From Prorocentrum cordatum (lineage: Eukaryota): 53,464 bases of DNA. The first letter of the stretch is position 1; each line of letters opens with the position of its first letter. The DNA lies in assembly GCA_963575745.1 (NCBI GenBank), contig CAUYUJ010000315.1, positions 62,001-115,464 of the forward strand, given 5' to 3'. The position numbers were made by a program, and so were the translations under genes. Below, one piece after another: positions 7,790 to 36,120 of the stretch. Under the pieces are notes generated by a model. The model did no database searches and was not told where the DNA came from. It saw only the letters and a program-made list of their open reading frames with translations.

Positions 7790-7930
7790 GGCGCCCCGGA
7801 AATCTCGACCCCTTCCCCGAGACTGGTTTCCATCCTGAGCGCCTTTTCAGCAGTCCTGGGGCTTGGCGAGGGCCCCCAGAAGCCGAAGATAGTGGACAGC
7901 CTCCCGTCGTGATTTTTCACGACCCGAGGC
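7790..7930. mobile_element. Opposite-orientation arm of foldback family R/F
   Basis: Reverse-complement similarity to 4865-5000 (CCGTCGTGATTTTTCACGAC vs GTCGTGGAAAAATCACGACG). Confidence 0.6.
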
Positions 7931-10389: not shown

Positions 10390-10720
10390 AGGCTTCCGGC
10401 TGTCTCCAGCCTTCGGGGGGTCCCCGCCGGGCCCCAGGGCTCTCAAGACACCGCCCGGGCTGAACACCTGGCCCCTAGGACAGGGCCGGGACTTCCAGGG
10501 ACAGCGCCTGGAACACATATCAGGACGTCGCCCCAAAGATCCGACGTCGTGTTCTTTTGTCAATACGGGGTCCCCAGAAGTCTCGACCCACTGCCCAGGA
10601 CCAGCTTGACGTCCTGAGTCGATTCTTGACGCTCCCGAGGCCTGGCGAAGGCCTCTGGAGGCCGAAAACGGCGAAAAACCTCCGTCTTGATTTTTTCGAT
10701 GCGCTGGATCTCTGGGGCAT
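10390..10720. mobile_element. Complete foldback element of family R/F (imperfect ~330-bp palindrome, apex ~10535)
   Basis: Left half resembles 21465-21600 directly; right half resembles the reverse complement of 21422-21530. Confidence 0.65.
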
Positions 10721-11699: not shown

Positions 11700-11850
11700 A
11701 CCCTCAGAGATCTCGAGAATCTCGACCCATCCCAGGGGACTGGCTTTTCATCCCGAGTCGTTTTTGTTCACGGCCCCGAGGCCGAGCGAGGGTCCCCCGA
11801 GGCTGAAAACACCGAAATACCTCCCGCCGCGCTGCTTTCATGACCCGAGA
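11700..11850. mobile_element. Arm of foldback family R/F
   Basis: TCATCCCGAGTCGTTTTT..CGGCCCCGAG matches the reverse complement of ~4930-4965. Confidence 0.55.
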
Positions 11851-19548: not shown

Positions 19549-21421
19549 TTACATCGCACCAGACTTATGGGCGTCGGTGGTCTAGGGACCTTTCCCTTAC
19601 AACCATTTCTTTCCCGTCGGGGAGGAGTTTACCCCTCCCCTTTACCCCCTCCCCTGGACTTGGACAGGGGGGTCCGCGAGGGGTTGGAGCGTTCAAGATG
19701 GCCCAAGACGGCTCCAAAAATGCCTCAGAGAGCCCAAGATGACCTCCAAGATGGCTCAAGATTTTTTTTGGAGAAGAAGGAGGGGCAAACAGGAGGGGAC
19801 GACCGCAACAGCACTCGAATCACCTGTGCACTCCGTGGCGACACGCGGCAGAGATTGACCAGCGGCCTCATTTACAACCACATCCAAGAAGTAAAAAGGC
19901 ATTGGCGAGAAGAACTGAAATGGCCGGCCGCGTAGACGTCACCACATTCAGGGGGAAGGGGAAGAGGAGGGGGTTGACGACGAGGAGGAGGAAAAGGAGA
20001 CGAGAACGGACAGTGGCGCTGTGTGTGTGTGCATAAAACCCCTATGGCCCCAGCGACCATTTATATAATGAGGCCTCACAGAACAACTCAAGACAGGAAC
20101 CCGCAGTGCATACCAATTTGAAGACCATGCGATGGCGTGGCAGAGAGAAAGCATCCCCAGATGCCTATGAAGCGAGAAGCAGAGGCGGGAAAGGGGAGGG
20201 AGGCGGAAAGCAGAAGGCGAGAAGGAGGAGGAAGAAACACACGATAACTAACTTGAAGCTCCTGGCATGCCCGTGAGCACGGGTGGCAAGCAGTATTGCA
20301 CTAAATCTGGGCGCGGGGCACGCGTCAGAGTAATGATGCAACGTAATGAAACTAGGGCGGCCGTGAGAGAGCCAAGCCCCGCCCGGAGCACTGTGCAAGC
20401 CTAAGGCGGACCCTGGGAACCCAGGGTGGCGGCCTACAAGGTCGGGCAGTACCGGGCGAGGAAGCGGCCTCGACCTGGATGCAAGCAGTGCCACTGCACC
20501 AATCCGGAGAAAGACCAGGGGGGGGAGGGAAAGCAGCTGCGCGCTCGTGCCGAGCGTCCTGGGGCAAAACTGTGCTGACTGCAGCGCCCTGGGGCGACCT
20601 AGTTAAACGGTCGTTTTTATTACATATATATATATATATGAAGAAATAGAGAGAGAGAGAGAGAGAGAAAAAAAAAAAAGAGAGAGAGATTGAGATTGAG
20701 AGGGAGAGAAAGAGAGAGAGAGAGAGAGAGAGACAGGAGGCCGAATGCCAGCCGCTTGGGCAGCTGCGCGACGCGCCGAGCAGCAGCAGGGGTGAGAAGA
20801 GTGGCCCAGTCAGGGCTCCCGTGCCGGTAGAGCTCGAGCGCAGCTTCGCGAAGCAGAACGGGAGGGCCCCGCCAGTCGAGCTGCCGAGGAGCGACAGCGA
20901 GGTCGGGACACACACCCGAGAGGCCAGACCGCGGGCCGGGCCCCCGGCCGAAGGGCTCAAAGTAGAACCGCCTCTCCCGATCCGAGGCGCGCGCCTTGCG
21001 ACCCAGCTGCGCGACCACCGACCAGAGCCACATCCGGAGCCACCTGCGCCAGGGCAGAGTGAGAGAGTGAGAGAAAGTGAGAGAGAGAGAGAGGGAGAGA
21101 GAGGTTCGCCTGCGCCCGCTGGAGGAGGGAACTGCCTTCGGGCCGGAGCTCGCCCCATTCGCTGGCGCGCCTGCGTGCCTGGCGCTGCCCGTGGATGGAC
21201 TGGTCGCTCCGAGCATCGCTCGAGCAGCAGGCGGGCCCGGCGCCTGGAGGCGCGGGAGGCCTCGGGGAGGGCGCCGCCCCCGCCCGGAGAGGCAGGAGCG
21301 CGCAGCGCCAGTCGAGCGCCCCCTCCTGCCGACAACCCATCCCTCGAGTGAGGTCGGCCACCGCGCGGCGCTTGCGCCTCTCGGAGCCAGCGCCGCGCGC
21401 GACCGCCAGGCTCCAGGTGGA

Positions 21422-21600
21422 GACCCAGACATGATGGCGTCGTAAAAAAATCCGGACGGGAGGTTTTTCGCTATTTTCGGCCCATGGGGGTCCTCGCCGG
21501 GCCTCGGGGCCGTCAAAAAACGAATCATGACGAAAAACCGGCCCCGGGGAAAGGGTCTGGACTTCCAGGGGCGCCGTCCTGAAAAAAATCAGGACGTCGC
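21422..21600. mobile_element. Half of foldback family R/F, ending at its apex where the RdRp sequence begins
   Basis: Ends ...ATCAGGACGTCGC as at 10517-10530. Confidence 0.65.
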
Positions 21601-23103
21601 ATGTCTGGGGAGCCTGGCCCCAGGGCCGAAGGAGTCGGAGGCCCAAGGGTGGGGCTGCAGGGTGGTGGAGGGGGGGAGGAGCGGGCAGGCTGTCCAGCCC
21701 TGGGAGGTGTAGATGACCTTCAGGTGCTCGGCGGCGTCGGCCCCGACGATGCCCTTCTCGGGGTGGCCGATCCCCAGACGCTCAAGCTGTCTGAAGTAGC
21801 GGGCGGCGCCCTCCGGGTTGGCGAAGCAGGCGAGCAGGTCGTCGCCGAGCACGGCCTCCTCCACGGCCGTGGCGCTCACGGTCTCCAGGAGCGCGAGGTG
21901 CAGGGCCCAGGGGAGGATGCTGTCCAGGCCCTGGGTGGCACGCCACCCGGAGCCGACCCCCCGGTCGGCCGTGAACGCTTCGCCCCCAGCGGTGAAGCGC
22001 GCGGCGTGCAGGACGTGGAGCCCGTGGTCCAGGGCCTGCTGCCACTCCGCCTGCGTGCTGCCAGCCTCCCCTGGCAGCCGCCCCACCAGCATGGCCAGCA
22101 GCCGGTGGGCCCTCTCGACTGTGCCCCACCGAGGCAGCTGGTCGAACTTCTTGGTGTCCGCTGAGATGCAGCCGCACTTGCCGCGCAAGCGTCGGACGAT
22201 CCGCTCCCGGCGCGCGAGCGAGTCGGCGCTCGTCTCCCAGACGACCGGGAGCACGCCCGGGAGGACCCGCTCCATGCGCTGGAGGAGGTAGCCCTCCCGG
22301 AGGGCGACCTGGGCCAGCGAGGGCACCGCGTCTCTCCACTTGCCCGTCTCCCTCTTGACGAGGGAGCGCACCGCGGGAGGGGCGAAGTCGTCGGGAAGGC
22401 GCCAGCCGTGGCCGCACCCACCCTCCGCCAGCAGCCCGAGCCACCCGGCACACTTGGTTCCCTCCAGGGCAGAGGCGCCCTTGGAGAGAGCAGCACCCTC
22501 AGGCGTTCGCAGGGCCGACTTCCCGAGCGAACCCGCTGTTCCCCACTTGCCGGAGAGGACGAACTCGCCCCAGGGCACCCACGGCTGCCCTCCCGGCTGG
22601 CCTCCACGATAGCGGCCCTCCATGATCGCGAGCCCCCTGTGGAACAGCCAGTTGACCTCCCGAGCCTGGGCCCGGGCCAGGCCGGGTTGGTCAGGGCCGA
22701 CCAGCCAGCGCCTCAGCCTTTCGAGAGTCAGCTTGCCGTCCTTGTCGGTCCGGGCCGGATCGGGCATCGAGCCGAAAAAAGTGTCGAGGCCTTGAACGAA
22801 CCATATCCAACCCCCGTCCGGCAGACGGGAGTCGGCCTGGTCCCTGTGCTTCCAGAAGGCGCCAACCTTGCCGAGGATGCATTTTAAGTGGTGGGTGGAG
22901 GAGGAGGAGAGCTCGGCTTTGAGGAAGAGGCGTTGGGCGTCAGCGCGAACGGGAGAGGGCGTGACATCGAGGATCAGAGCTAGCCGCGCCTCCACAACTG
23001 GGTGGGGCCAGCCACGACGCGTCCAAGGGAGGAGCTTGAGGAGGGCCGGGGGGGGGGGCGGTAGGAGTGGGGCGGGCAGGAGCGGAACCACTCTTCGCTC
23101 CAC
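21589..23103 (-). pseudogene. Endogenous viral element: toti-/giardiavirus-like (Ghabrivirales) RNA-dependent RNA polymerase, C-terminally truncated; probably extends 5' to 23307 via a frameshift
   Basis: Motifs in the correct order: WGTAGS; motif F KRETGKWR (~22332-22356); motif A DTKKFDQ (~22138-22158); motif B GSGWRATQGLD (~21920-21955); motif C GDD (21838-21846); HPEK; AEHLKV; LQPHPW. Confidence 0.88.
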
Positions 23104-23307
23104 TCCACCTGCCCAGGGCTTACGGAGGGGGGAGTGAGCCAGACCTCGTTGTAGCCCCGCTGGACCTCGTCTGCGGCGCGGTCCAGCGGGCCCAGGCCCT
23201 ACTCAGCAGTGGTCCGCCCGCTCGCAGCGAGCGTGCCGTGCGGGTCTGCCAAATGCCGCCGTCGCCTTCGAGATGGGCGTCCGCCCCCTGCCAGACCGGT
23301 GCCCCTC

Positions 23308-24270
23308 GGGAGAGCATGCTACGCATGGAATGAATTGAATAGAAGATGAGGTGTTGGATCCGTGAGTGGATCAGCCTAGACAGTATCATGGTCAGAGGCT
23401 TTGATGCCTCCATTGATTGTGGGTCGGCTATGATGCCAGCCAATGCCCACCCCGTCCCGTATCCAGGGACTTCGCATTCCCCTTTGATGGCAGGATGGGG
23501 AGACGGTCCGCCACCCCCGGCACTGCACGTACTGTGCCGGGTTCGTGGGGATTTTGTTGAATTCTATGAGTGTCCCCTCCCTCCCCTCCCCGCCCCTCTA
23601 CCTCCGCGCCTGGTCCTGTGAGTGGGGAGCCAAGTAACGTATACACCGTTTTGACTCCGAGTCCCGGTGACGATCACAACCTGCAGAGCTTGCACGAGTT
23701 TGCACGAGTTAAGACCAAAGGGTTACCAGGTAAGGTCTGCAGGCGGGAGGTCTGGACTAAAGGGCTACCAACTAGACGTCTGAAGTGGGAGGTCTGGACC
23801 AAAACGTTACCGGTCAGAGCTAGCCCAAGGGTGAAAGGCAGGAGTGACGAGGGGGTAGGGCCTTTTCTGACCGCGAGCCTCTACCAACCCAGTAAGTATA
23901 TGTTGGGGCCTACCCACCTCACATGCATCACAGCCGAGGTGGCCAGTGGCGCGTGCCTTCACGAGCCCAGCTGTCAAACACTGATACAGAGTAGCCCGAA
24001 ACCCCAGTCAAGTGGTCCCGGAACGCGCGCAAGGCCTCGGAGCGCAAGTTGTCCGGAAAAGTGTACTGGGCCACGCGCGCCACGATGCCTAGGATGATAC
24101 CCCGCTTCGTGCTGTCAGGGATGAAGCTGTAGTAGGGCGAGAAACCTTCAAACTCAAAGGCGCCGCCCCTGCCCCCAAGATGTCCGATCGAAGGGCATGC
24201 CTCCACGCTGCCGTCCACGTTAAGCTTAAGGTCAACACCTACGAACTTGAGGCTATCATCTCGTTCGAGC
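23308..24270 (-). repeat. 3' pLTR copy (RT C-terminus + 620-bp 3' UTR)
   Basis: About 19 substitutions vs 28692-29654 counted by eye (~98% identity), constant offset 5384. Confidence 0.95.
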
Positions 24271-26534
24271 GGAAGGGGGTACCGCTCTCCTGCCCGTTGT
24301 GCCAGGCTGCTGGCAATCAGCCCGATGTCCCAAGCCTTCAAGTAGGAAGGGCCTTCCCAAAGAAGGAGGTAACCGTCCATGTACCGCACCTCGAGAAGCC
24401 ACACCACGTGGCCCAAGATCACGGTCTCATATACGCGGCCCCTGCATCCCAAGGGGGGGAGTTCAGGGCCATGCAAGGAGTAGTAGAAGGGAAGGTCGCG
24501 TAAAATTAGCGCCATCCGGGCAAGCGCTGAGCCCATGGGGCCCCCCATCGCCAGGCTCTCCACCTCCATCCCCACCAGCTCCCCCAGCATGAAAAAACCG
24601 GTGCAAAGGTGATGCCGTATAAGCACATCAATGTCATCAATAGTGATGGTCATGCACTGGCCGTGAACTCGGGATGGAGGCGCCCCTGCTGATGATGCTG
24701 CGCGCCTGCCGCGGCGCGCCACGCGGATAGCCTGGATCGACCCTTGCAGGGTAGATCGGTAGAAAGACCAAGCCCGAACGATGAGCTCGTGGGGCACGTT
24801 CGTGAAACAACTGACGACGTCGGAGCCGCATGCTCGGACCGGGGTCGATGGTCCGATCTCGGTAAACTCGCGGAGGAGCTCGATGACGGAGTCGGCCCTG
24901 TGGATGTCAATATGGGCATGCTGTGGGAGGTGGCAGGCCCCGACCCAGTCCAGCGCCCGAGCCGTTGGCGTGTCGAGGCATGCCGCAGGCCACGCCGAAC
25001 GGTTGACGACGGGTCGGCGGTCGTCTGGCTTCGCCCTTTTCTTGTTGGGGGCGCTTGCCCGGGCCATCTTCCAAGCCGATGGCCTGCTGATGCGCCTGGG
25101 CTGCAGTTCCGGCGAGAGCCCAGGAACGTCGGCTGCACGTAGCAGAACGGCCTCCGCAGTGAGGTCGGGGAAGTACCGGTAGTGCGGGCCCGCCCCGTCA
25201 GCCCCAAAAAGTTCATGGCATAGTAGCTGAACTCGCCGCGGGCACTCGGCGACCATTACCCGTCGCGTTTTCTGGAAGGTCTCAATGACGAGGCCCCTCA
25301 GGGAGCGCCGCATCTCGGCCACCTCCGCGTGCGTGATCGGTACAAAATCGAGGCTAGAGGGTGCAAGACCTGCCGCCCCGCAGTAGGTATCCGTCGCCCG
25401 CGCCGCCATCTGCTCCAGCGGCCCAGCGTCCATCCCCATCCCAATGGTCGCAGCCAGGCGTTTGGTGAGCTGGGTGAAACTCTTAAGCAGAATGCTGCGC
25501 TCAGGAACGATCGCAACGTGAGCAGGGGCCGTCCGTAGACGGGACTGGTCGTTATGCCGCGGCCATGTCTCCTGCGGGGCAAAAATGTGGAACTGCCCGT
25601 CCGGCGACTCGACCCGGGGAAGCGCCGGGAAGGCATCGCACAGGCACTCCCATGGTGCCGTCTCGTGAGGCCGTGCGTAGAAGCGCGGCGCATTGCGAAG
25701 TGCCCTGCCAAGCGCGGTGGCCGGACGTGGTGCCACGCCGATGCGAAGGTGGCGCAGCGCTGGCAGTAGCAGGCCGTAGCCGCGCGAACGGCAGTGGACA
25801 ACCATGTCTGATAGTAGTGAGCGTGCCGCCCGCCGGGCGTTCCTGCGTGGAAGCCATGGCAAGCGTACGTGAACCGACGCGCGGGGTCTTGGCCAGCCCC
25901 GGAAGCGCCGAACGCGGTCCAGGAAGATAAGCCCCATGCGACGCGGTGGCCCCTCCGCCACTCGGTGGACTCTGCTCCAGATGGCGTAAAACTCCGCCGG
26001 CGAGACCTTGAAGATATGCCGGCGGCACTGGCCAGACGTAGGTGAGCCGAGCGTGTTGCAGGCGCCGGCTGCCCACCAGCGGACCACATCAGCGCCCTTC
26101 TGCGCGCCGCTCCCTTCTCGTAGCGATTGGGGAGTGTCCTGAGCGAACTTGCGGTGCTGAGTTGGCCGCGCCGGAGGTGTGGGAGGGCAGTAGGTGTAGT
26201 ATTGGCGGGGCCGCCGCCCGCGTGGCCCCTGACTGTCCAGGAGTCGCTGTACGTATGGCTCATTCAGTGGAGGGTGCATCGTGTCTATGACGTGCCTTTC
26301 CAATGCCAAGAGCTCTGCGTCGTCCTGGGCGCGACCGATGGGCGTGAAGATTAGCGACGAAGAAGCCTTTGGGAGGTCGCCCCCAAAGAGAGCTGAGAGA
26401 AAGAGCATGTACGGTTGTGGCCTGTAGTTGCCTGGATAGAGTAGTCCCTGTAGGTGTCGGCGCACGCGGGCTTGGAAGTCGACCGTCTTGCCAACGTAGT
26501 AATGCTTATGCCAGGGACTCCATATTATGTACAC
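23928..26534 (-). CDS. PLE ORF2: GIY-YIG endonuclease + CxC..H linker + reverse transcriptase (catalytic YMDD appears as YMDG)
   Basis: VYIIW..YYVGKT..RVRRH..LE..I...HPPLNE; WECLC...FHIF; RPVVN; SDVVSCFTNVPH; LAMGGPMGSALA; RYMDG; LKFVGVDL. Confidence 0.88.
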   Translation of the reverse strand: MYIIWSPWHKHYYVGKTVDFQARVRRHLQGLLYPGNYRPQPYMLFLSALFGGDLPKASSSLIFTPIGRAQDDAELLALERHVIDTMHPPLNEPYVQRLLDSQGPRGRRPRQYYTYCPPTPPARPTQHRKFAQDTPQSLREGSGAQKGADVVRWWAAGACNTLGSPTSGQCRRHIFKVSPAEFYAIWSRVHRVAEGPPRRMGLIFLDRVRRFRGWPRPRASVHVRLPWLPRRNARRAARSLLSDMVVHCRSRGYGLLLPALRHLRIGVAPRPATALGRALRNAPRFYARPHETAPWECLCDAFPALPRVESPDGQFHIFAPQETWPRHNDQSRLRTAPAHVAIVPERSILLKSFTQLTKRLAATIGMGMDAGPLEQMAARATDTYCGAAGLAPSSLDFVPITHAEVAEMRRSLRGLVIETFQKTRRVMVAECPRRVQLLCHELFGADGAGPHYRYFPDLTAEAVLLRAADVPGLSPELQPRRISRPSAWKMARASAPNKKRAKPDDRRPVVNRSAWPAACLDTPTARALDWVGACHLPQHAHIDIHRADSVIELLREFTEIGPSTPVRACGSDVVSCFTNVPHELIVRAWSFYRSTLQGSIQAIRVARRGRRAASSAGAPPSRVHGQCMTITIDDIDVLIRHHLCTGFFMLGELVGMEVESLAMGGPMGSALARMALILRDLPFYYSLHGPELPPLGCRGRVYETVILGHVVWLLEVRYMDGYLLLWEGPSYLKAWDIGLIASSLAQRAGERYPLPLERDDSLKFVGVDLKLNVDGSVEACPSIGHLGGRGGAFEFEGFSPYYSFIPDSTKRGIILGIVARVAQYTFPDNLRSEALRAFRDHLTGVSGYSVSVFDSWAREGTRHWPPRL

Positions 26535-26869
26535 GACAAATTCAGCATGCAGGAGGTCCGGCGACGGTGGCCATTAGAGGATGGGAGTGAGGATGCAAGT
26601 GTGCGGAGCTTGCTGTAGAAGGCGGTGGTGGAGGACATCAGGAAGGGTGCGGTGAGAGCAATGCCCATGCGAATGAGTGCAAAAATGCATGGCCATACGA
26701 AGACATTCTCGGCGTACACGCTGTGGAGGGCATGGCGGACCAATGCCAGAGAGGTGATGTTGCAAAATCGGACCTCAGGGGTTCTGGAAATGCATGGCAC
26801 CCCGTCGTCGTGAAGATCCCAAACACCACCGCTTGCGCGGTGCGCTCCTGCGCGTGTACGGGAAGATAG

Positions 26870-28401
26870 TCAAATCTCTGTCGAACGCGTCTTGGCCATG
26901 ATGGCCGCCAGGAGCTGCGACAAGTCCCCCAATCGCTTCTCGTCGAAGCGAACGCCGAGCTCGGACGCCTTGTCCTTGAAGACCGCGAGGACCTTCGGGT
27001 CTGGCTTCTTCGACCGGCCCTTGGGCGCCACGATGGCATCGAGCGCCTTGCGGTAGACTGCAAAGCGTTGCCGATCCGACGCTGGGGAGTCCTCCGTCGG
27101 CACGGCCTCGTCCATGGCCCAGTCGATAGTCTTCGTGTTCCTGGCCTGGTGCACGCGGTCAGGCTTGAACTTTTTGATGTCGTCGAGCGTGTACTGGGTG
27201 ACCGTCTTCTGGGGTGCCCGACCCCCTCCTGAGAGTGCCCGGAGCGTGTGAGCCGACGCAGGCTGCGCCTCAGGGATCGCCTCCGTAGCCTCGACATGCG
27301 CCTGGCCCTGGCCCGCAAGAAGGGCGGCGACCGTGTGGGTCATGTTGGACAGGCACTCGCCTGACGTGGACTGCTCGGCTCGTTTGCACGGGCTCTGGGT
27401 CGAGATCCAAGCTAGGAGGACCGAGAACGAGAAGGTGTCCGAGTCGAGGGTCACGAACGGCACAATATTTTGCAGGTTGCGCCTGGCTTGCGCCCGCATG
27501 ATGTAGGGGCAATGCTCTTCGGCGTTCTGGGAGATCTCCCTCCGGGTCTTGGCGGTGCACAAGGAGATGCACCTGCGCATCATCTCGGCGTTGCATTTCT
27601 TGCGCTCATTGATGAAGTCCTCCGTGCCGAACGGGATGTCGGGCTTGTAGTCGGGGGGGAGGGCGTAAGCCGTCTCCAGAAGCTTAGATGCAACGGCGCC
27701 CCCCGAGAAGAGTAGCTCGCGGACCTCAATGTCGGACAGCTTTTGGATGGCACTCTTGGCGGCCTGCACCCCGCTCTCCGGCGCACCGACGTGGTTGGGT
27801 GGGTAAGCCTGGCCTTGCCCGTGGTCCCTGGTGGCTGGGAGGTCGCGGGGGCCACGGGGGTCCTGTTCCCGGCGCGGAGCCCGATCGAAGTACTGGGCAC
27901 CGTGGTGAGGATCATACTGCCGGCGGGATAGGCCAGCGGCAGGTGGGGCGACCGCGCCGCCGGCGATGCCTTCGGCGTCAGCCCGTGCGCCATCCTGGGG
28001 GCAGCCCCGATCGGCGAGGCAGGCGGTGGCTTCCTTGGGAGTCCGGGGCTTTGCGCAGGGCAGTCCCTGGCGAGGTGTCCGCGGATGCCACAGTTAGGGC
28101 AGAGCAGGCGGTCTGGTGAGAGGGGCCGGGTGGGGGCCTCATGGTGGCCACCCGTGGTCCGCGGCATGAGCCTGTGATGGTCACGTGCCCTGGACCTGGA
28201 CCTAGACCTATGATGGTCGCGGCCCATCCCCGCCGCGGGCCTGTGATGGCCCCGTGCGATGGGTTTGGACCTAGACCTATGATGGTCACGGCCCGACTTT
28301 GCCCTATGATGGGAAGGTTGGTCGCGGTAGAGGTCGTCACGGTAGCCCTTGGGGTCGAAGTCGCCCTTCGCCTGACGCTGCCCATGTCCACGGTCCGCCA
28401 T
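26870..28401 (-). CDS. PLE ORF1: R/S/H-rich N-terminus, CCHC zinc knuckle (CPNCGIRGHLARDC, 28060-28101), helical C-terminal region; one frameshift at ~27930-28050
   Basis: ATG at 28401 (MADRGHG); second frame open from 28093 to the TGA at 26870-26872. Confidence 0.65.
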
Positions 28402-28691
28402 GCTGCAAGCGAGTCTCCTGCGGCGCCGCTTGGGGGGGTCCTGTGAGCGAGGTAAGTCGGAAACCTGTACCCTTGGGCAGAAGAGGCGGTGGAGAGGGGA
28501 AGCGGGAGGGGAGGGGGAAGGAAGGGCGACAGAGGGGAGAAACAGAACAGGAGGGGGAGAGAACGAAGAACGAGCCAGGATGCAGGAGCAACGAGGCCCT
28601 CCCATTCCCTTTGAATTCAATGAGTTCTATGAATTCTATGACAGGCACTGGACGGCCGGCAGGGGACTGAGTCCCGTTCACGGCCCAATCA

Positions 28692-29654
28692 GGGAGAGCA
28701 TGCTACGCATGGAATGAATTGAGTAGAAGATGAGGTGTTGGATCCGTGAGTGGATCGGCCTAGACAGTATCATGGTCAGATGCTTTGATGCCTCCATTGA
28801 TTGTGGGTCGGCTATGATGCCAGCCAATGCCCACCCCGTCCCGTCTCCAGGGACTTCGCATCCCCCTTTGATGGCAGGATGGGGAGACGGTCCGCCACCC
28901 CCGGCACTGCACGTACTGTGCCGGGTTCGTGGGGATTTTGTTGAATTCTATGAGTGTCCCCTCCCTCCCCTCCCCGTCCCTCTACCTCCGCGCCTGGTCC
29001 TGTGAGTGGGAAGCCAAGTAACGTATACGCCGTTTTGACTCCGAGTCCCGGTGACGATCACAACCTGCAGAGCTTGCACGAGTTTGCACGAGTTAAGACC
29101 AAAGGGTTACCAGGTAAGGTCTGCAGGCGGGAGGTCTGGACCAAAGGGTTACCAACTAGACGTCTGAAGTGGGAGGTCTGGACCAAAACGTTACCGGTCA
29201 GAGCTAGCCCAAGGGTGAAAGGCAGGAGTGACGAGGGGTTAGGGCCTTTTCTGGCCGCGAGCCTCTACCAACCCAGTAAGTATATGTTGGGGCCTACCCA
29301 CCTCACATGCATCACAGCTGAGGTGGCCAGTGGCGCGTGCCTTCACGAGCCCAGCTGTCAAACACTGATACAGGGTAGCCCGAAACCCCCGTCAAGTGGC
29401 CCCGGAACGCGCGCAAGGCCTCGGAGCGCAAGTTGTCCGGAAAAGTGTACTGGGCCACGCGCGCCACGATGCCTAGGATGATACCCCGCTTCGTGCTGTC
29501 AGGGATGAAGCTGCAGTAGGGCGAGAAACCTTCAAACTCAAAGGCGCCGCCCCTGCCCCCAAGATGTCCGATCGAAGGGCATGCCGCCACGCTGCCGTCC
29601 ACGTTAAGCTCAAGGTCAACACCTACGAACTTGAGGCTATCATCTCGTTCGAGC
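28692..29654 (-). repeat. 5' pLTR (5'-truncated tandem copy of the PLE)
   Basis: Direct repeat of 23308-24270; 4-nt GAGC microhomology with the flanking 45-bp duplication at 29651-29721. Confidence 0.95.
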
Positions 29655-30188
29655 ACGCCCCGGGTCGCGTGCGCAATCGGCGGGCCCCGCCCCGGGAGCA
29701 CGCCCCGGGTCGCGTGCGCAACCGGGGGCTCCGCCGAACCCCGGGAACCTCTCCAGAGCACGTAGCGCCAGTCCTGGCTCGGCACCTGCGGGGGCATGAG
29801 CGGGCAGCGTGATTGCCAACAAAAAAGCGCCCCGTGGGGAAGCGTGAAAATGGCGCGCCAGCCACTCCGTAAACGGACGGTGCGACCTATTTTCTCCGAA
29901 ATGCGCACGCCAACGAAACGTGCAATTGCCCCAGACGCGGGTAAAACGGGGGGCAGGAAAGGGAGGGAGGGAAGGAGGGAGGGAGGGGGGGAGGGGGGAA
30001 CGCCACTGCCGAGCGCTGAAATCCGCGCCGTGCTTGGAAACAATGGCACGAGCCGTCGCGGGGAGACCGTCGCGTCCAGTGCGCGGCGCGCGGCCCCGGA
30101 GCGCTACGGCAGGTTTGCCAAAAAGTCCACGGCCTGAGACGCCAACCCCTGGGGGGGCCGCAAGCCCGCGGGGAGGCCGGGAACCGCC

Positions 30189-30558: not shown

Positions 30559-33430
30559 CTAACCTAGGGCTCGCTGGGAGGCAGGGTGCCCCCTAACGAG
30601 CTCGCGAACGCACTGGGGCAACGCCTCGCGCGCTGCTGGTCCAGCACCAACGCCGCCGTGCCGGGAAAGACGATGCACTTTGTACACAGCTGCGGTGCGC
30701 AACGCCTTGCGAACGAGAAGCCCTGGCTCAGCCGTCACGCGGCGGAGCGGCATGTCCAACAGCAAGAAGCAACTCGTGCAATCTCGGCGGGACCCCGGGC
30801 GGCGGAGCCCCAGCGAGGTCTGCGCAAACCGCCGCGCGGTTGGGCACGCCGCGTAGTGCTCGATGGAATCTGGGGCAGCGGAACCGCGGAATATGCATAG
30901 GTCCAGATGATGGCATCGACCTTGCATGCGTCGATATGAAGCCCACCCATTCCACAAAGAGCACCAGACAGCCGCCCATGTGCGAGGAGTGACCCGCGCT
31001 CCGAGCTCGCTGAGGGCCGCGAGGCAGCGCTCCGCCCGGCAGCGGGGGAATTGAGAGACGTCCCACACTATGAGTTTGTGACGAGTGCGCCACTCCATTC
31101 GGGACTAGACACCCCTGGGCAAGGTGGCGAGGGCGGCCCGCTGAAAACCACGTCGCGCTGCGGCTGCCGTGCTGCTGCAAAAGGGGCGGAGCTCGCCGCG
31201 CGCCAGCTCGCCTTCCGAGGCTTCGGGGCGAATCCCACTGGCCGCGAAGTGCGCCGCCGCGGCCTCGAGATGAAAGACGAACGATCGCTGAAACCACGAC
31301 GGCCAACGCGCAATGCGATCCAAGTGCTCCGTATCCCGCATGCACAAGCGCAGCTCACGCGACCGCTCGGCCACGCGAAGGCCGTCGGGCTGGCCTTCCT
31401 GGTGCGCCACCCGGAAGCGGCAGGCCAGCGAGAGCCTCGCAGCGTCGGGGAAGTCCTTCGTGAAGCCGAACCCCCGCAAATCGTGTAGATCTGCAGGAGT
31501 GCACCAGAATCCAGGGCCAGGGACGAGAGCTCGGAGAGCCGCAGCTTCGGTTTGCCCCCACGCAGGCGGCAAGTTGCCCAGTTGCAACAAGAACGCAATA
31601 ACCGGGATAATGTACACGCTGTACGCCAACGCGGTAAGGAGTAGTCCGCCTCCCGCGGCACCCCAATCCCGAGAGCGTTCGAGGACCTTCTTGAGCGGCT
31701 TCGTGAAGGCGAGATCGCCGCGTTCTGGGCCGAGTACAAATCCCAAGTGCTTCGCATGCAGCTCCACCTTGATGCCTGCCCACGCCGCGAAGCGCTCGGA
31801 TACAAATCTGGCCAGAAGAGTTGTGCTTGAGGTGAGAACGGCACGATCACCGTCTTCGGCAAGTTTAGCCGAAGGCCAGATATGCGTGAGAACTCCTCGG
31901 AGACCCCGACCAGCGTCGGAAACGCCGCAATGCCCGAGGGGAGCACAACGGCAACGTCGCCCGCGCAGGCGCGCACAATCGCCCCCGGCACGAGGCGCTG
32001 TATTCGACGAAGCAAGACATCAACAGCAGCTGCGAAAAGAAGGAGCGAAAGAGGGCAACCTTGTCGTATACCTGCCAAAAGCTCGAAGCCGTCGTGCTCC
32101 CTGCCGCCCACTACCAGCGTGCACTTGTTGTGCGCGTACAGCGCTGCCTCGAAGTTGAGGACCCACTGAGGCAGGCCAACGGCAGCGAGGGCCTCTCGCA
32201 GAAATGCATGGGCTACGCTGGGAAACGCAGCCTTGAAGTCGAAGGAGACTGCCAGGCCAGCGTCGTCGCGAAGAGCCGTCTGCATCACGGCGAGGTCAAC
32301 ATCAACAACGTTCGCAAGCATCGAGCGGCCGCCGACGAACCCGCGCTGGCAGCTGCAGATCCACGAGGCCAGCGGAGGCTCGATTCTGAGCCGGATGGCG
32401 TTGGCGAGGAGTCACTGTCTACGATGTTCAAAGGGCGGGTGTCCAGGGTCGTAGTATTCTCCAACGTCTGCATCTGTCCCAGTAGGCGCCTTGGGCAGAA
32501 ACACCATCAAGCTGCTGTTGAAACCGGTGGACACGTCGGATCCACGGAGGAAGTCGCCCAGAGCTGGAGAGCCAGGGTCCGTCGCCACGCGTTGAAGAAC
32601 CTTGAACAAAATGTCCACGGCCACTGGGCCCAACAGTCTCCAGGACAATAAGGGAATTCCATCCGGCCCAGGCGCGGAGTCTGGAGATGAATCCAGAGCT
32701 GCTTGCACATCGCCCTGGCGGGGCTGCCGCGCCTGATCTCCTGGCGGGGGGAGACCGTCGGAAGTTGCGTCTTCCTGTAGCCACCGCCTCAGCGCCTGGC
32801 GATCCACCCGGCACGACGCAAACGTAGCCGACCAGTGACTACGAAGAGCATCCGCCATCGCCTCTGGGTCCGTGACGACCTCGCCGCGGGCGTTCCGCAC
32901 AGCAGGCAACGACGTCGGCCTGCCCGGGGAGAGTCCACGAAGCATCTGGAACAATCGATCTCGTCTGTGGCCCCGCGTGGGGTCCGCAGCAGCAGCCCCG
33001 GACAGCTCCGCAAGTTGCCCGACGGCGGCTTCGCGCGCCAGGCCCACGGCGCGCTGGCGGAACGGACCGAGACCGGCGCCCCGGAGACGCAGCAGAGCCA
33101 TTGGGTCAGCAACCAAGGTCTGCAAATGCGGGTACAGCCGCAGACATCGACGCATCTGGCCTGCGCGGCCATCTTCAACCGCCCGTGCAAACCGCACCGC
33201 GAGCCCAACTTTGTCGTCAACCTCTGGCGGGGCCACGCCGGCCCGATCCCTCCCGGCAGCCATGCGGTCCGACACTGTCCGAATAGCCTGCTTCAACAAC
33301 TGCAAGCAGCGCAAGGGGCACGACGGTTCGGCATCCTGCCCGACGAGCTCGTGGAACTCCTCCGCCACCCGGCCAGGCCACGCAGGACCACGAAGCAGGT
33401 GAGCAGGCACTGGACGAGGCTCGTCTCGTT
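30559..33430 (-). pseudogene. LINE ORF2 linker + RT + C-terminal zinc-knuckle region, several frameshifts
   Basis: SAPGPDGIP; VFLPK; RPLNIVD; QRGFVGGRSM; FDFKAAFPSV; GIRQGCPLS; CAGD (decayed YADD); GLRLNLPKT; KHLG; DSIEHYAAC. Confidence 0.88.
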
Positions 33431-34130
33431 CACGGGCAGGGCGAAGACGTCCAACAGTTCGCTGTTGGTCGAGCTCACTTCGCCGGCCACTCTCCACGCT
33501 GTTTGGCATCTCTGCGAGGAGGCCGTCAACACCAAGGCCAAGATGGTGACAATCCGCACCGCCGTCGACACAGAGCAATGGCGGGAAGTGATGAACCAGA
33601 CGATCACGGACGACGCCGCCAGCGCCATCTTGAGGGTCCGTTATCGCCCTTCTCGGCGGGGCGGCCGGCTGTGGGCTTCGCCCTCCGCTACTCCTCAGCA
33701 GCTCGCGGCCCTCTGCCGCAAAGGCGCCGGGTCGAGCCAGCAGCCCAGTGGGCATACGGTCTCAACGTTGACAGTCAATGGCTTCCTTGGGCACGATCCA
33801 GCTCGTATCATCAGGGGTCTCATGGCGGTGATTCGGGACCGCTCGGGCGTGAACTTGAGGGGGCAGAGCGCGGGGGGCGAGCTGATCAACAGCTGGCGAC
33901 GGGTGGCGGACGTCGACCCCTCTGCGCACCCAGGCCAGGTTCGATTGTAGATCGCTTCATTAAACGACGCCCAGGCGGTCCTTGATGATGTCAACGGTCG
34001 CGCCGTGCAGCTGGGTACGGATCTGGTCAGCGTCAGCATCACCAACGACGAAATCGAGACGCAGCAAGGAAACGTCCATCGGGGGCGGGGTCGCCGGGGC
34101 CCTGTCCCCGGGGAGCGACGCCCGGCTTGA
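33430..34130 (+). pseudogene. C-terminal part of LINE ORF1 (inverted segment), one internal TAG at 33948-33950
   Basis: Protein-like frame (SLLVELTSPATLHAVW...VSVSITNDEIETQQGN) directly upstream of the APE ORF. Confidence 0.6.
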
Positions 34131-35275
34131 GCCCAACGGAGACGCTAATTGAGGTCTACACCATGGCCGGCTCCCGGTTCTGGATGTTGGATCTCGTTTT
34201 GCATGCTCGTCGCATTGACCATGGCGACGTTCCTCTTTGCATTCGTCCTCTTTCTCCTCATTTGCTACGTGCTCGTGCTGCTCATCTCCACGCCTGTGCC
34301 GATGCAGGCGCTGACACGCATGGTGGACTCGAGGCCGACGTGTCCTCGGCGACGCGGCTGCCCTCAGTGCCTCCTGCGCGTCCTGCGCCACGCCTGCGTG
34401 GTCGACGAGTACCCCGCCCCCCGCCGCTGCCGCCAGGACAGGCGAGGCTACCTGGCAGCGGGGGTCTTCCCAGCGGCGACGCACGCCCCGCCGAGCATGG
34501 GCTGGTGATGGCCCCCTTCCGCGGAGAGCTCCAGGGCGCTGCCTGGAATACCCAGGCCCTCTTCGCTCGGAAGCGGTCCCGCCACATGGCCAAGGACCAC
34601 TACGTACGACGGCTTTTCCGCGATCGGGACTTTGTGCTGCTGTCCGAGACCCATGGCCTGGAGCGCGAGGGATTGGCGTGGGGTTGCCCAGGAGACAGCC
34701 GGGCATGGTTCTCCCCGGGCACTTCGCGCAGAGCCGGAATCGGCATCGTGGTCAAGTCAAGTTTCCTCCAGCAGTTCGACTCGGAGCTGACGTCGTGGGA
34801 GGAGCTGGTCCCCGGGAGGGCTGGCGTACTTCATCTGGCAGGCCCGCGAAGCGCGTTGGATTTGTACTCCGTGTACTTCACTGCCGGGTCGCACGCCTCA
34901 GGCGTCGTGCAGCCCCGCGGCACCACCGCCCAGGACGTCTCCGAAGCGCAGGCTCGCCAGCAGCGGGAGGCCATGCGACGTCGCCCGGCGGCGGCCATGT
35001 CCCCATCGGGTTCGGTGCTGCCGATCGTCGCGGAGGACTTCAATTGGGTGGCTGACGCGCGGGACCGTTACGCCAAGACGACCGCCGAGTACACTGGACA
35101 CAGGGATGCTGGCCACGAGCGGCACTTCCATTCGGTCTTGTCTCAGCCCTATGGGTTGTTCGAGCTCCGGCAGCCGGCGATGACGCAGGAGAACGCCAGC
35201 TCCAGGTCCAGACTCGACCGCATCTATTGGAATCAGCCCTTGGCTGAGCAGCTGGATCGTCGCATCTGCTGCGCT
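34127..35275 (+). pseudogene. LINE ORF2 N-terminus: apurinic-type endonuclease, truncated before the SDH motif
   Basis: AAWNTQAL; VLLSETH; AGIGIVV; VPGR; YSVY; AEDFN; SRLDRIY. Confidence 0.88.
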
Positions 35276-36120
35276 TCCAAGATAGCTCAAGATAGCCCAA
35301 GATGCCTCCAGATGGCTCCCAAGATGCTCCAAGAGGCTCCAAGAACGCTCCAAGACGGCTCCAGGTGGCCATGGAGCCTCTCCAGGATGCCGCCAAGAGG
35401 CCATGAACCTGGCGCGAACCCAATTCGGGAAAAGTTTCCTACTGCATGGGCGCAGTACTTGGCATTGCTTGGCATTCTTCGCATTGATTGGCATTGCGGG
35501 CAAGGCAAAATTAAGAGGCACCAACCTTTAAGCAAGTAAGAGCTCCTTCGGCAAGACAAATTGGGGAAATAGGAAGCACCAGGGGCGGGGAACCCGAGGA
35601 ACCCGAGGAACCTCCGAGCAATGGGCAAAATAACAATAGGAGGCACCAACCTTTAACCATAGAGCCAAGTAAGAACCCCTTAGGCAAGCCTGTCTTTAAC
35701 CAGAACAACCTTCCAAAACCTAAGGGAAATCAATGTGTTTTGCTGTCTCGCCTTGTCGCTTCCGATGGCCTTCCGAGGCCTCAGGATGTCTCCAAGATGG
35801 CCCAAGAGGGCTCCAAGAGGGACCCAACCTCCAAGACGGCCCCCAAAGCGCCCAAGAGCGCTCCAAGGGCGCCCCAAGAGTCGATCTTAGGCACTCTCGA
35901 GGAACAGTGCTAATTGAGACCCGCCCCTTCTTTAGTCGATGTCTTCCAAGATGGCTCCAAGAGCGCCCCTAAAGCTCCCAAGAACGTCCAACGAGGGCCT
36001 CAAGAGGGCCCAGACGGCCCCAAGATGCGCCCAAGGGGCATCCAAGAGGCTCCCAAGAGATCCCCAAGAGGCCTTAAGAGGACCCCCGAGGCACCCGAGA
36101 CGCTCAAAGACTGCCTTCGG
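35276..36120. repeat. CCAAGA-type satellite fragments and GTAAGAACCCC-type repeat ends
   Basis: CCAAGATGGC/CCAAGAGG units; GTAAGAACCCCT at ~35669, also at ~2910. Confidence 0.7.

What the first reader, a model, noticed from the sequence alone, without database searches (positions are those of the whole stretch)
21589..23307. Endogenised dsRNA-virus (toti-/giardiavirus-like) RdRp in a dinoflagellate-like genome
Seen: a 504-codon open frame with all palm motifs in order (WGTAGS, KRETGKWR, DTKKFDQ, SGWRATQGLD, GDD, HPEK, AEHLKV, LQPHPW) and an intact GDD. Established: these signatures (K.E.GK.R, SGWR.T..LD, EFLR, LQRKPW) characterise Ghabrivirales toti-/giardiavirus-like RdRps, which have no DNA stage. 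Inference: this is a non-retroviral endogenous element from a divergent, GC-rich and possibly undescribed virus of this host. A second frame (GPLDRAADEVQRGYNEVWLTPP...EEWFRSCPPHSYRPPP) can be joined at the G11 run (23048-23058), extending viral coding towards 23307 with one TAG.
Basis: partly seen in the sequence, partly recalled or inferred. Interest (0 to 1): 0.9.

Follow-up and report, generated by a model that had tools for sequence, protein, structure and literature searches.

The report
Fossil dsRNA-virus polymerase in algal genome
A piece of the copying enzyme of a totivirus-like double-stranded RNA virus has been written into the DNA of a GC-rich marine protist, probably a dinoflagellate, where it sits among jumping genes as a decaying relic that records a past infection by a little-known virus group.

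Summary
A profile of 29 relatives, built without the window, scores it E = 7e-45. It fails Pfam RdRP_4 on its own (14.2 bits, cut-off 22), but 25 of 30 aligned family members match RdRP_4. A pLDDT-73 model matches toti-like, Giardia lamblia virus and related RdRps best.

Three closest-clade or related viral contigs of about 5.4 kb have the two-ORF totivirus layout.

Integration in DNA is shown inside the window:
- A 186-bp high-copy MITE (21424-21609, perfect 10-bp inverted ends, 2-bp duplication) splits the polymerase. Read without it, the frame runs on and the profile match extends to 21308.
- A Penelope-like retroelement (23308-29653) abuts the 5' side.

The element is a relic. It has no start codon, no capsid and no last third of the polymerase, and 12 of 39 otherwise conserved positions are changed.

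The extension to 23307 and the frame join at the G11 run have only weak support. The dinoflagellate host was not tested here.

This is a new member of a known kind (toti-like endogenous viral element) and of moderate interest. I found no report of one in dinoflagellates.

The parts
21610..23004 (-). Core of the virus-derived RdRp (fingers and palm, motifs F, A, B, C, D, E) in one open frame; part of the stop-to-stop ORF 21592-23202
   Evidence: Profile of 29 relatives: E 7e-45, profile positions 105-526. BLASTP to the RdRp of viral contig L002: 1e-21, residues 31-531 against 153-617. tblastn of 24 of 24 viral-contig RdRps hits only this stretch. Model with pLDDT 73.
23005..23202 (-). Upstream end of the open frame, with the C11/G11 run at 23048-23058. 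Possible N-terminal polymerase sequence, reading frame unsettled.
   Evidence: Included in the long BLASTP alignment to L002 but outside the profile alignment. The main frame against the L002 N-terminus is no better than shuffles (102 of 300 reach it).
22983..23198 (-). Weak, collinear similarity to the N-terminal part of the L001/L002 polymerases.
   Evidence: E 0.09 to L001 residues 9-41. Profile E 4.3 at positions 72-102. Local score 43 against L002 residues 139-162, reached by 9 of 300 shuffles.
21424..21609 (.). 186-bp MITE inserted into the polymerase. Perfect 10-bp terminal inverted repeats; 2-bp target duplication at 21422-21423 and 21610-21611. It supplies the last 7 codons and the stop of the ORF.
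   Evidence: Ends and flanks printed. Word depth in the thousands in runs X1 and X2, with loose ends at 21424 and 21609. Four diverged copies (72-76%) elsewhere in the window.
21308..21421 (-). Continuation of the polymerase behind the MITE (start of the thumb), shifted by two bases only because of the 188 inserted bases
   Evidence: Second-best of 1035 ORFs, E 0.001, profile positions 553-594, collinear. With the 186 + 2 bases left out, one alignment spans positions 105-594 and the score rises from 149.2 to 173.6 bits.
21258..21314 (-). Possible last trace of the polymerase in a third frame (a T/A-P-x3-G-G-x-G motif), implying a further frameshift near 21308
   Evidence: Profile positions 592-616, score -1.9 bits, E 0.26 among 4 sequences; collinear but not significant.
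23308..29653 (-). Penelope-like retroelement in partial tandem, same strand as the polymerase, its 3' end touching the polymerase's 5' side. Pseudo-LTRs at 23308-24269 and 28692-29653. ORF 23928-26573 has an N-terminal GIY-YIG and a CxC motif. ORF 27580-28626 has a zinc knuckle.
   Evidence: 962-nt direct repeats with 19 differences. GIY-YIG 25.8 bits, above the cut-off of 22.6. zf-CCHC 23.7 bits. Nearest Atlas clusters carry GIY-YIG and RVT_1. Organisation as described for N-terminal-endonuclease PLEs (PMC8557442, passages).
21040..21111 (.). (GA)n-type microsatellite just beyond the last trace of the polymerase
   Evidence: Repeat family D1; translation.

Best explanation
This is a non-retroviral endogenous viral element. 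It is a DNA copy of an internal part of the RdRp gene of a totivirus-like (order Ghabrivirales) double-stranded RNA virus, lying in the nuclear genome of a GC-rich marine protist, probably a dinoflagellate.

Shown:
- The sequence is a viral RdRp of the toti-like kind.
- It lies in DNA. A host MITE later inserted into it, and a Penelope-like retroelement abuts its 5' side.
- It lacks a start codon, the first ~150 and last ~240 residues of the polymerase, and any capsid gene.

Inferred:
- A plus-strand transcript of a persistent cytoplasmic virus was reverse-transcribed by a host retroelement enzyme and joined to the chromosome.
- The insertion is young. The frame is open for 685 codons once the MITE is ignored, and the codon periodicity is strong (GC3 87%).
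- It is now an inert, decaying relic, not a working polymerase.
For: Viral RdRp:
- phmmer against 1.84 billion representatives gave 6 hits. The best was 4.5e-19. Three of the six pass Pfam RdRP_4's cut-off, P0004 with 65 bits.
- 25 of 30 members of alignment A5 match RdRP_4 at E <= 0.001.
- The profile of six sequences hit 37 PDB sequences, all viral RNA polymerases, best 1.7e-5.
- The profile without the window scored the ORF 7e-45.

Toti-like:
- The AlphaFold model has pLDDT 73 and pTM 0.78.
- In BFVD, all 50 listed matches have E between 1.3e-15 and 6e-12 and TMq 0.55-0.74. Of these, 34 carry a name: 15 have 'toti' in the name, 2 are Giardia lamblia virus, and others are piscine myocarditis virus, a chrysovirus, a botybirnavirus and Yado-nushi virus. 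None is named for another RdRp lineage.
- Solved non-toti RdRps fit less well, TMq 0.39-0.53.
- Relatives L002, L005 and L015 are 5.3-5.5-kb contigs with an ~810-850-aa ORF1 overlapping an ~800-900-aa RdRp ORF2.

In DNA:
- The MITE has 10-bp inverted ends and a 2-bp duplication and is high-copy in public runs.
- Leaving out 186 + 2 bases restores one frame and one alignment across profile positions 105-594.
- The Penelope-like element's pseudo-LTRs lie directly beside the polymerase.
- Identical 171-173-nt pieces of the polymerase occur in runs X1 and X3, both guessed to be DNA.

Relic:
- There is no Met before residue ~194.
- No capsid or C-terminal homology turns up anywhere in the window, using all ORFs of 120 aa or more from 24 viral contigs and the profile.
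- The window keeps the consensus in 27 of 42 columns that are at least 90% conserved in relatives. Three of the 15 misses lie beyond the MITE.

Clade:
- The window groups with L001, L002, P0003 and the Amphidinium carterae transcript P0008 (SH-aLRT 100).
Against: - The protein itself does not reach Pfam's RdRP_4 cut-off: 14.2 bits against 22, E 0.022.
- Word-index searches found nothing.
- The language-model Atlas puts it nearest to RdRp clusters whose known members are mostly Pisuviricota, not Duplornaviricota.
- ORF1 of the related contigs matches no capsid family: Pfam for L002, L005 and L015; L009's ORF1 hit only a phospholipase A2-like domain. PDB sequences were tried for L002 only.
- No named reference viruses could be put in the tree. 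The tree is a quick search without bootstraps, and the window's branch is very long (2.22 against a median of 0.38) with deviant composition.
- No contig in the public runs spans either junction.
- The whole genome is not held, so copy number and paralogues are unknown.
- Host identity was not tested here.
Confidence: 0.86

Rival explanations
1. The polymerase fragment and the Penelope-like element entered together. The element's reverse transcriptase started on viral RNA, jumped to the 3' end of an element RNA, copied it, and jumped once more. One event then produced 5'-[truncated element]-[full element]-[viral fragment]-3'. This refines the best explanation; it concerns the route of integration and is not an alternative to the fragment being an EVE.
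For: - The order and shared strand are exactly as this model predicts. The 962-nt 3' part of the element (29653 to 28692) is followed by the full unit (28691 to 23308) and then the viral fragment.
- 23308 is the element's canonical end. In other copies in X1 and X2 it is preceded by the tandem junction.
- No remainder of the virus lies on the far side of the element.
- Both parts look young: 19 of 962 pseudo-LTR differences, an intact 881-codon element ORF, and an open viral frame.
- Partial tandems are the norm for these elements, and retrotransposition of host genes in trans is cited for them (PMC8557442, passages).
Against: - A later, independent insertion of the element at or into the fragment gives the same junction.
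- Viral homology is undetectable for the ~180 bases next to the junction.
- Target duplications of such elements are often indiscernible (PMC8557442), so their absence says little.
- A LINE-type RT and an endonuclease ORF lie within 12 kb and could equally have been the source of the enzyme.
Confidence: 0.3
2. The fragment is a co-opted host gene, for example a truncated polymerase or RNA source that interferes with related viruses, and selection keeps it open.
For: - The open frame is long: 537 codons, or 685 without the MITE.
- Codon periodicity is strong: GC1 0.71, GC2 0.54, GC3 0.87.
- The catalytic aspartates of motifs A and C are kept.
- A related sequence is present in an Amphidinium carterae transcriptome.
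Against: - There is no start codon near the 5' end.
- A MITE interrupts the coding sequence, and a further frame change follows.
- 12 of 39 conserved positions within the ORF are changed, six of them invariant in all relatives that have a residue there.
- In 70% GC sequence stop codons are rare, so an open frame is weak evidence.
- No orthologues were available for a dN/dS test.
Confidence: 0.08
3. The polymerase is not in the genome at all. A viral cDNA or RNA-derived contig was joined to host DNA by the assembler.
For: No public contig spans the junctions, and cover of the polymerase in the runs laid is only two short pieces.
Against: - A host DNA transposon with inverted ends and a target duplication sits inside the reading frame, and its removal restores the frame exactly. 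An RNA virus genome would not carry this.
- The flanks on both sides are host repeats found at high depth in the same runs.
Confidence: 0.03
4. The donor virus belonged to another RdRp lineage (for example Pisuviricota such as partiti-, picobirna- or sobemo-like viruses), not to the toti-like viruses.
For: - The nearest Atlas clusters are mostly Pisuviricota where a phylum is known.
- Pfam RdRP_4 also covers non-toti viruses (recalled from the Pfam description).
- The best PDB matches are picobirnavirus, norovirus and HCV polymerases.
Against: - All 34 named BFVD neighbours among the 50 listed are toti-like or allied dsRNA viruses or unclassified. None is a named member of those other lineages, and TM-scores are higher than for any solved RdRp.
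- The capsid-first, polymerase-second overlapping layout of L002, L005 and L015 is that of totiviruses.
- No totivirus-like polymerase appeared among the PDB matches returned, so the PDB ranking cannot test this.
Confidence: 0.06

Closest known systems
Toti-like endogenous viral elements of eukaryotic nuclear genomes (fungi, arthropods, plants; the red alga Chondrus crispus, Rousvoal et al. 2016, seen only as a reference-list entry in PMC9651163; the wider literature is recalled)
   Same: A fragment of a totivirus-like RdRp gene integrated in nuclear DNA, without the rest of the virus, embedded among retroelements and partly decayed.
   Different: The host lineage is a probable dinoflagellate. 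The donor clade is undescribed, 26-33% identical to its nearest relatives. Integration is documented here by a MITE inside the gene and a Penelope-like element at its edge.
Endogenous +ssRNA dinoRNAV and weivirus-like elements of Symbiodiniaceae (Veglia et al. 2023, PMC10235124; Virus Evol 2022, PMC9651163; passages read)
   Same: Non-retroviral RNA-virus RdRp fragments in dinoflagellate genomes, near reverse transcriptases and non-LTR elements, degraded, with retroposition proposed as the route.
   Different: Those derive from single-stranded RNA viruses. 'toti' and 'dsRNA' occur 0 times in PMC10235124. 'dsRNA' occurs 0 times in PMC9651163, and 'totivir' occurs once there, in its reference list. 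The present element is toti-like.
[quoted passage not shown]
   Same: Partial toti-like RdRp sequences tied to dinoflagellates. Triopas is 1,425 nt, had 70 reads, was not confirmed by RT-PCR and carries an antisense ORF, as GC-rich sequence does here.
   Different: They were reported as exogenous viruses from transcriptomes.
Viral contig L002 (IMG/VR, 5358 nt) and its clade (L001, P0003, P0008)
   Same: Nearest sequence relatives. L002 gives the full genome plan: ORF1 of 809 aa and an overlapping RdRp ORF2 of 899 aa.
   Different: L002 is 54% GC and complete. The window's copy is 70% GC, covers only L002 RdRp residues ~139/153 to ~650, and is interrupted.

Membership tests
Viral RNA-dependent RNA polymerase (palm-domain RdRp) | Motifs F, A (D-x4-D type), B (S-G-x3-T), C (G-D-D), D, E in this order | tested here: met
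   All are present in order in the translation and aligned to motifs A-C of HCV NS5B by the profile. D283, F287, D288, G349, S352, W354, T357, G387, D388 and D389 of the 471-aa core agree with the family consensus.
Viral RNA-dependent RNA polymerase (palm-domain RdRp) | Right-hand polymerase fold | tested here: met
   Model with pLDDT 73 and pTM 0.78. At least 500 matches at E <= 0.001 in both BFVD and PDB; all rows shown are viral RNA polymerases or unnamed entries.
Pfam PF02123 RdRP_4 | Score at or above the curated gathering cut-off (22 bits) | tested here: not met
   14.2 bits, E 0.022, over residues 418-478 only; 0 families for the 471-aa core at E <= 0.001. Relatives do pass: 25 of 30 alignment members at E <= 0.001, P0004 with 65 bits. 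Membership is therefore by transitive homology.
Toti-like viruses (order Ghabrivirales) | RdRp closest to those of recognised toti-like viruses | tested here: met
   Of the top 50 BFVD rows, 34 are named: 15 with 'toti' in the name, 2 Giardia lamblia virus, and others piscine myocarditis virus, chrysovirus, botybirnavirus and Yado-nushi virus. This rests on structure ranking only; no tree with named references was possible.
Toti-like viruses (order Ghabrivirales) | Single ~5-kb genome with a 5' capsid ORF overlapping a 3' RdRp ORF (checked in relatives, since the window holds a fragment) | tested here: inconclusive
   The layout is met in L002, L005 and L015. ORF1 has no match to any capsid family (Pfam; PDB), so its capsid nature is inferred from position and size.
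Non-retroviral endogenous viral element | Virus-derived sequence physically continuous with host chromosomal DNA | tested here: met
   A host MITE lies inside the coding sequence, with inverted ends and a target duplication, and the frame is restored on its removal. A Penelope-like element is directly adjacent. Junction-spanning reads were not obtained.
Non-retroviral endogenous viral element | Donor virus family has no DNA stage | not testable with these tools
   This follows from established knowledge of dsRNA totiviruses (recalled).
Co-opted (domesticated) viral gene | Complete ORF with start codon, expression, purifying selection | tested here: not met
   No start codon, MITE interruption, loss of N- and C-terminal parts, 12 of 39 conserved positions changed. 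Expression and dN/dS could not be tested.
Penelope-like elements with N-terminal endonuclease (Naiad/Chlamys type), for the neighbouring element | N-terminal GIY-YIG, CxC linker, C-terminal RT, partial-tandem pseudo-LTRs | tested here: inconclusive
   GIY-YIG scores 25.8 bits at residues 13-44. A C-L-C motif is visible in the translation. There are 962-nt pseudo-LTRs. No Pfam RVT_1 hit for the ORF and no PDB hit. The RT is supported only by Atlas neighbours carrying RVT_1 in 18-77% of members.

The most novel reading that the evidence does not exclude
The locus is a single chimeric cDNA. A Penelope-like element's reverse transcriptase copied a totivirus transcript and then jumped onto its own RNA. 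This would be a direct footprint of how a dsRNA virus enters a genome, through a retroelement class not so far implicated in this as far as I recall (not searched). As a corollary, the toti-like 'viruses' reported from dinoflagellates only as scant partial transcripts may be transcripts of such endogenous copies and not free viruses. Examples are Triopas ghabri-like virus 1 and the Amphidinium carterae transcript P0008, which reads GDE where relatives have GDD.
Probability: 0.25. Interest if true: 0.6.

Novelty: new member of a known kind. Interest (0 to 1): 0.45.

Why it matters
- It links an undescribed clade of toti-like viruses to a dinoflagellate-type host. One member of the clade is an apparently complete 5.4-kb genome known only from environmental data. 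Few RNA viruses are known for such hosts, and those few mostly come from transcriptomes.
- It warns that partial, low-abundance toti-like contigs from dinoflagellate transcriptomes need checking against the genome before they are called viruses.
- The MITE inside the gene is a clean internal proof of integration that needs no extra sequencing.
- The arrangement beside a Penelope-like element offers a testable route of capture.
- Toti-like endogenous elements are well known in other eukaryotes, so the finding extends a known phenomenon and does not open a new one.

Tried and rejected
**Searches that found nothing**
- Word-index protein searches with the ORF, with a six-sequence alignment and with the L002 polymerase found nothing beyond L002 itself. 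No source names were obtained.
- The own genome is not held, so paralogues and capsid fragments elsewhere could not be sought.
- tblastn against phage records: no match.
- Metagenome and second viral-contig scans with the five-member clade returned only L001 and L002, with L025 being the same contig as L002.

**Structure**
- The first structure model, from 6 sequences, was too poor to use (pLDDT 42).

**Capsid or further polymerase parts in the window**
- None was found, using all ORFs of 120 aa or more from 24 viral contigs at E <= 0.5 and the profile.
- A score of 57 between a third frame at 23000-23160 and a proline-rich stretch 200 residues from the end of L002 ORF1 was reached by 0 of 300 shuffles. 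It is not collinear with the polymerase and overlaps the same bases, so I take it as low complexity.

**Public runs**
- No RNA holder was listed. Shares were small (0.13, 0.08, 0.05). No contig bridges a junction. Most of the polymerase has no cover in the runs laid.

**Host identity**
- The dinoflagellate spliced-leader motif (recalled) is absent from the window with up to 3 mismatches.
- Rfam and tRNA scans found nothing.

**Other**
- The non-viral tail of P0003 looked to me like the end of a LINE reverse transcriptase (recalled resemblance). It has no Pfam hit and no similarity to the window's RT ORF, so I dropped it.
- One pattern search for further MITE copies used too short a gap and found nothing, not even the known copy. 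blastn then found four diverged copies.
Full report
**1. What is there**

On the minus strand an open frame runs from 23202 to 21592, 537 codons with the stop at 21589-21591. The G11 run at 23048-23058 is there. So is the second frame, with its single TAG.

The stretch is 70.7% GC with strong codon periodicity: GC1 0.73, GC2 0.56, GC3 0.84 over the ORF, and GC3 0.87 over the core. The window as a whole is 61% GC.

Long open frames are common in such sequence. Mononucleotide shuffles gave a mean longest frame of 231 codons. None of 2000 shuffles reached 537; the largest was 501.

**2. Is it a viral polymerase?**

Direct tests on the protein alone are weak:
- Pfam RdRP_4 scores 14.2 bits (E 0.022), under its cut-off of 22.
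- Nothing turns up among PDB sequences.
- Nothing turns up in the word-index searches.

The full HMMER pass over 1.84 billion representatives found 6 relatives, with E-values from 4.5e-19 to 9.8e-4. Three of them pass RdRP_4's cut-off; P0004 scores 65 bits over profile positions 83-460 of 465.

IMG/VR gave 24 further loci. Of the 30 aligned family members, 25 match RdRP_4 and 13 match RdRP_1 at E <= 0.001.

A profile of six members hit 37 PDB sequences, all viral RNA polymerases, with motifs A to C aligned to HCV NS5B at E 1.7e-5.

I built a profile from the 29 relatives without the window's own row. It scored the ORF E = 7e-45 (149 bits, profile positions 105-526) among all 1035 six-frame ORFs of 25 aa or more in the window.

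**3. Which kind of polymerase?**

With the 30-sequence alignment, AlphaFold gave a usable model (pLDDT 73, pTM 0.78). The first attempt, with six sequences, did not (pLDDT 42).

Against BFVD:
- The 50 rows shown have E from 1.3e-15 to 6e-12 and TMq from 0.55 to 0.74.
- 34 rows carry a name, and 15 of those have 'toti' in it.
- Two are Giardia lamblia virus.
- The rest include piscine myocarditis virus, a chrysovirus, a botybirnavirus, Yado-nushi virus and various unclassified dsRNA viruses.
- None is named for a picorna-, flavi-, sobemo- or partiti-like virus.

Solved structures fit less well. Picobirnavirus, norovirus, rotavirus VP1, HCV and Lassa polymerases give TMq 0.39-0.53.

Three related contigs of 5.3-5.5 kb (L002, L005, L015) have an ORF1 of about 810-850 aa overlapping an RdRp ORF2 of about 800-900 aa, which is the totivirus plan. 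L009 is longer, with a 1691-aa ORF1.

Three results count against a toti-like placement:
- The Atlas language-model search puts the protein nearest to RdRp clusters that are mostly Pisuviricota where a phylum is known.
- ORF1 of the relatives matches no capsid family.
- I could not obtain named reference sequences for a tree.

**4. Nearest relatives**

In a quick IQ-TREE search (all 30 rows kept, 491 columns, SH-aLRT only, midpoint root) the window falls in a five-row clade with support 100. The other members are:
- viral contigs L001 and L002;
- P0003, from an ENA-sourced 3954-nt contig;
- P0008, a transcript from the EukProt set of Amphidinium carterae.

The window's branch is very long, 2.22 against a median of 0.38, and its amino-acid make-up deviates.

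P0008 reads GDE where the family has GDD and departs in motif B. P0005 is a 186-aa relative of residues 147-272 and lies on a 39.5-kb contig. Both look more like endogenous copies than free viruses, but I could not fetch their DNA.

**5. Proof of integration, and the true downstream end**

Public runs show that 21385-21618 is covered at word depths in the thousands. Loose ends sit at 21424 and 21609.

That stretch is a 186-bp MITE with these features:
- perfect 10-bp terminal inverted repeats;
- a 2-bp duplication on either side;
- four diverged copies (72-76%) elsewhere in the window.

Polymerase homology stops exactly at 21610.

The second-best ORF of the whole-window profile search lies directly behind the MITE. 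It covers 21433-21308 in another frame and aligns collinearly to profile positions 553-594, with E 0.001.

I read the two sides together by coordinates, leaving out the 186 bases and one copy of the duplication. Three things follow:
- The frame stays open for 685 codons.
- One alignment covers profile positions 105-594.
- The score rises from 149.2 to 173.6 bits.

The residues just before the MITE (ending GARL) and just after it (starting STWSLAVARG) correspond to consecutive residues of L002 (SAL, then DSWSLLVARG). An RNA virus genome cannot carry a host DNA transposon, so this settles that the sequence is in chromosomal DNA. It also shows that the stop at 21589 is not the element's end.

Near 21308 the frame changes again. 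A weak, collinear trace follows to about 21258 (E 0.26 among 4 sequences). After that nothing is recognisable up to a (GA)n microsatellite at 21040-21111.

About 240 profile positions of the C-terminal part are missing.

**6. The upstream side**

Direct repeats of 962 nt lie at 23308-24269 and 28692-29653 and differ at 19 positions, 14 of them transitions. They are the pseudo-LTRs of a Penelope-like element in partial tandem, on the same strand as the polymerase.

The element has these parts:
- an 881-codon ORF with an N-terminal GIY-YIG domain (25.8 bits) and a CxC motif;
- an upstream ORF with a zinc knuckle;
- Atlas neighbours that carry GIY-YIG and RVT_1.

This organisation matches the N-terminal-endonuclease PLEs of Craig et al. 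2021 (PMC8557442, passages). No RT domain was detected directly, however.

The element's 3' end touches the polymerase's 5' side at 23307/23308.

Between 23307 and about 23125 I find nothing viral.

Its score of 43 was reached by 9 of 300 shuffles; the main frame's score of 31 was reached by 102 of 300. There were 15 comparisons and I made no correction. Other scores for the second frame are E 0.09 to L001 and profile E 4.3. The frame join at the G11 run is therefore possible but not shown.

No capsid or further polymerase sequence lies beyond the element from 29654 onward.

**7. State of the gene**

- There is no methionine before about residue 194. This fits a polymerase that the virus makes as a fusion or by frameshifting, and it means the fragment cannot be translated on its own.
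- In 42 columns that are at least 90% conserved in the 29 relatives, the window keeps the consensus in 27.
- Three of the 15 misses are columns beyond the MITE, where the residues are in fact present.
- The other 12 are real changes. Six are at positions invariant in all relatives that have a residue there.
- The catalytic aspartates of motifs A and C and the S-G-x3-T of motif B are intact.
- The open frame and strong periodicity argue for a young insertion from a GC-rich donor. The MITE, the frame changes and the altered conserved positions argue against a working enzyme.

**8. Mechanism**

*Shown:* a toti-like polymerase fragment in DNA, later hit by a MITE and flanked by a retroelement.

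*Inferred:* a plus-strand viral transcript was reverse-transcribed by a host retroelement enzyme.

The layout on the coding strand is 5'-truncated element, then full element, then 5'-truncated viral fragment. That is what successive template jumps of the Penelope-like RT would give if it started on viral RNA. PLEs form partial tandems as a rule and are cited as retrotransposing host genes in trans (PMC8557442).

An independent later insertion of the element gives the same junction. A LINE-type RT (31068-32411) and an endonuclease ORF (33989-35539) are also near. I give the chimera model about 0.3.

**9. Host**

I could not test it:
- No genome is held.
- The spliced-leader motif is absent from the window.
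- Rfam and tRNA scans found nothing.

The leads are the Amphidinium transcript in the clade and earlier, unchecked notes of this scan on the same genome. Those notes report a LINE that begins with the dinoflagellate spliced leader and call the genome Prorocentrum-like.

Runs X1 (organism coded) and X3 (an estuary metagenome), both guessed to be DNA, each hold one piece of the polymerase identical to the window: 173 nt in X1 and 171 nt in X3.

**10. Literature**

What I saw (all as passages found by term search, plus search listings):
- Endogenous RNA-virus elements of dinoflagellates are described for +ssRNA viruses (PMC10235124 and PMC9651163). 'toti' and 'dsRNA' occur 0 times in PMC10235124. 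In PMC9651163 'dsRNA' occurs 0 times and 'totivir' occurs once, in a reference to Chondrus crispus.
- Toti-like viruses tied to dinoflagellates are Arion toti-like virus (PMC9927876) and Triopas ghabri-like virus 1 (PMC9599419).
- Triopas is 1,425 nt, had 70 reads, was RT-PCR negative and has an antisense ORF.

Four full-text searches returned no paper describing a toti-like endogenous element in a dinoflagellate. Supplements were not read. Subscription journals are outside the library.

Toti-like endogenous elements in fungi, arthropods and plants are long known (recalled).

**11. Verdict**

The boundaries need correcting on both sides. It is a new member of a known kind and of moderate interest.

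Noticed in passing
window 23308-29653: Penelope-like retroelement with N-terminal GIY-YIG, a CxC motif and 962-nt pseudo-LTRs (19 differences), plus an upstream zinc-knuckle ORF. The paper describing this PLE type does not mention dinoflagellates (0 occurrences).
   Followed up: partly
window 21424-21609; diverged copies at 7790-7917, 10416-10531, 10532-10696, 11724-11826: A 186-bp MITE family with 10-bp perfect inverted ends and a 2-bp target duplication, present at word depths in the thousands in two public runs and also in an estuary metagenome. Its autonomous partner is unknown.
   Followed up: partly
window 31068-32411 (-) and 33989-35539 (+): A reverse-transcriptase ORF (RVT_1, 1.4e-14) and an endonuclease/exonuclease/phosphatase ORF (2.8e-6) on opposite strands. 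These are further non-LTR retroelement remains in what looks like a nest of transposons.
   Followed up: no
P0008 (Amphidinium carterae, EukProt) and P0005 (39.5-kb ENA contig): P0008 is a transcript with GDE in place of GDD and an altered motif B. P0005 is a short polymerase fragment on a long contig that shares a ~10-residue insertion with the window's copy. Both suggest further endogenous copies of this virus clade in other protists.
   Followed up: partly
L009 3-5075: A more distant relative on an 8.5-kb viral contig has a 1691-aa ORF1 with a phospholipase A2-like domain (30 bits, cut-off 23.9) ahead of the RdRp.
   Followed up: no
window 29654-29760: Directly beyond the Penelope-like element the flank looks like a short GC-rich tandem repeat of about 45 nt; this is seen only by eye in the alignment.
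   Followed up: no
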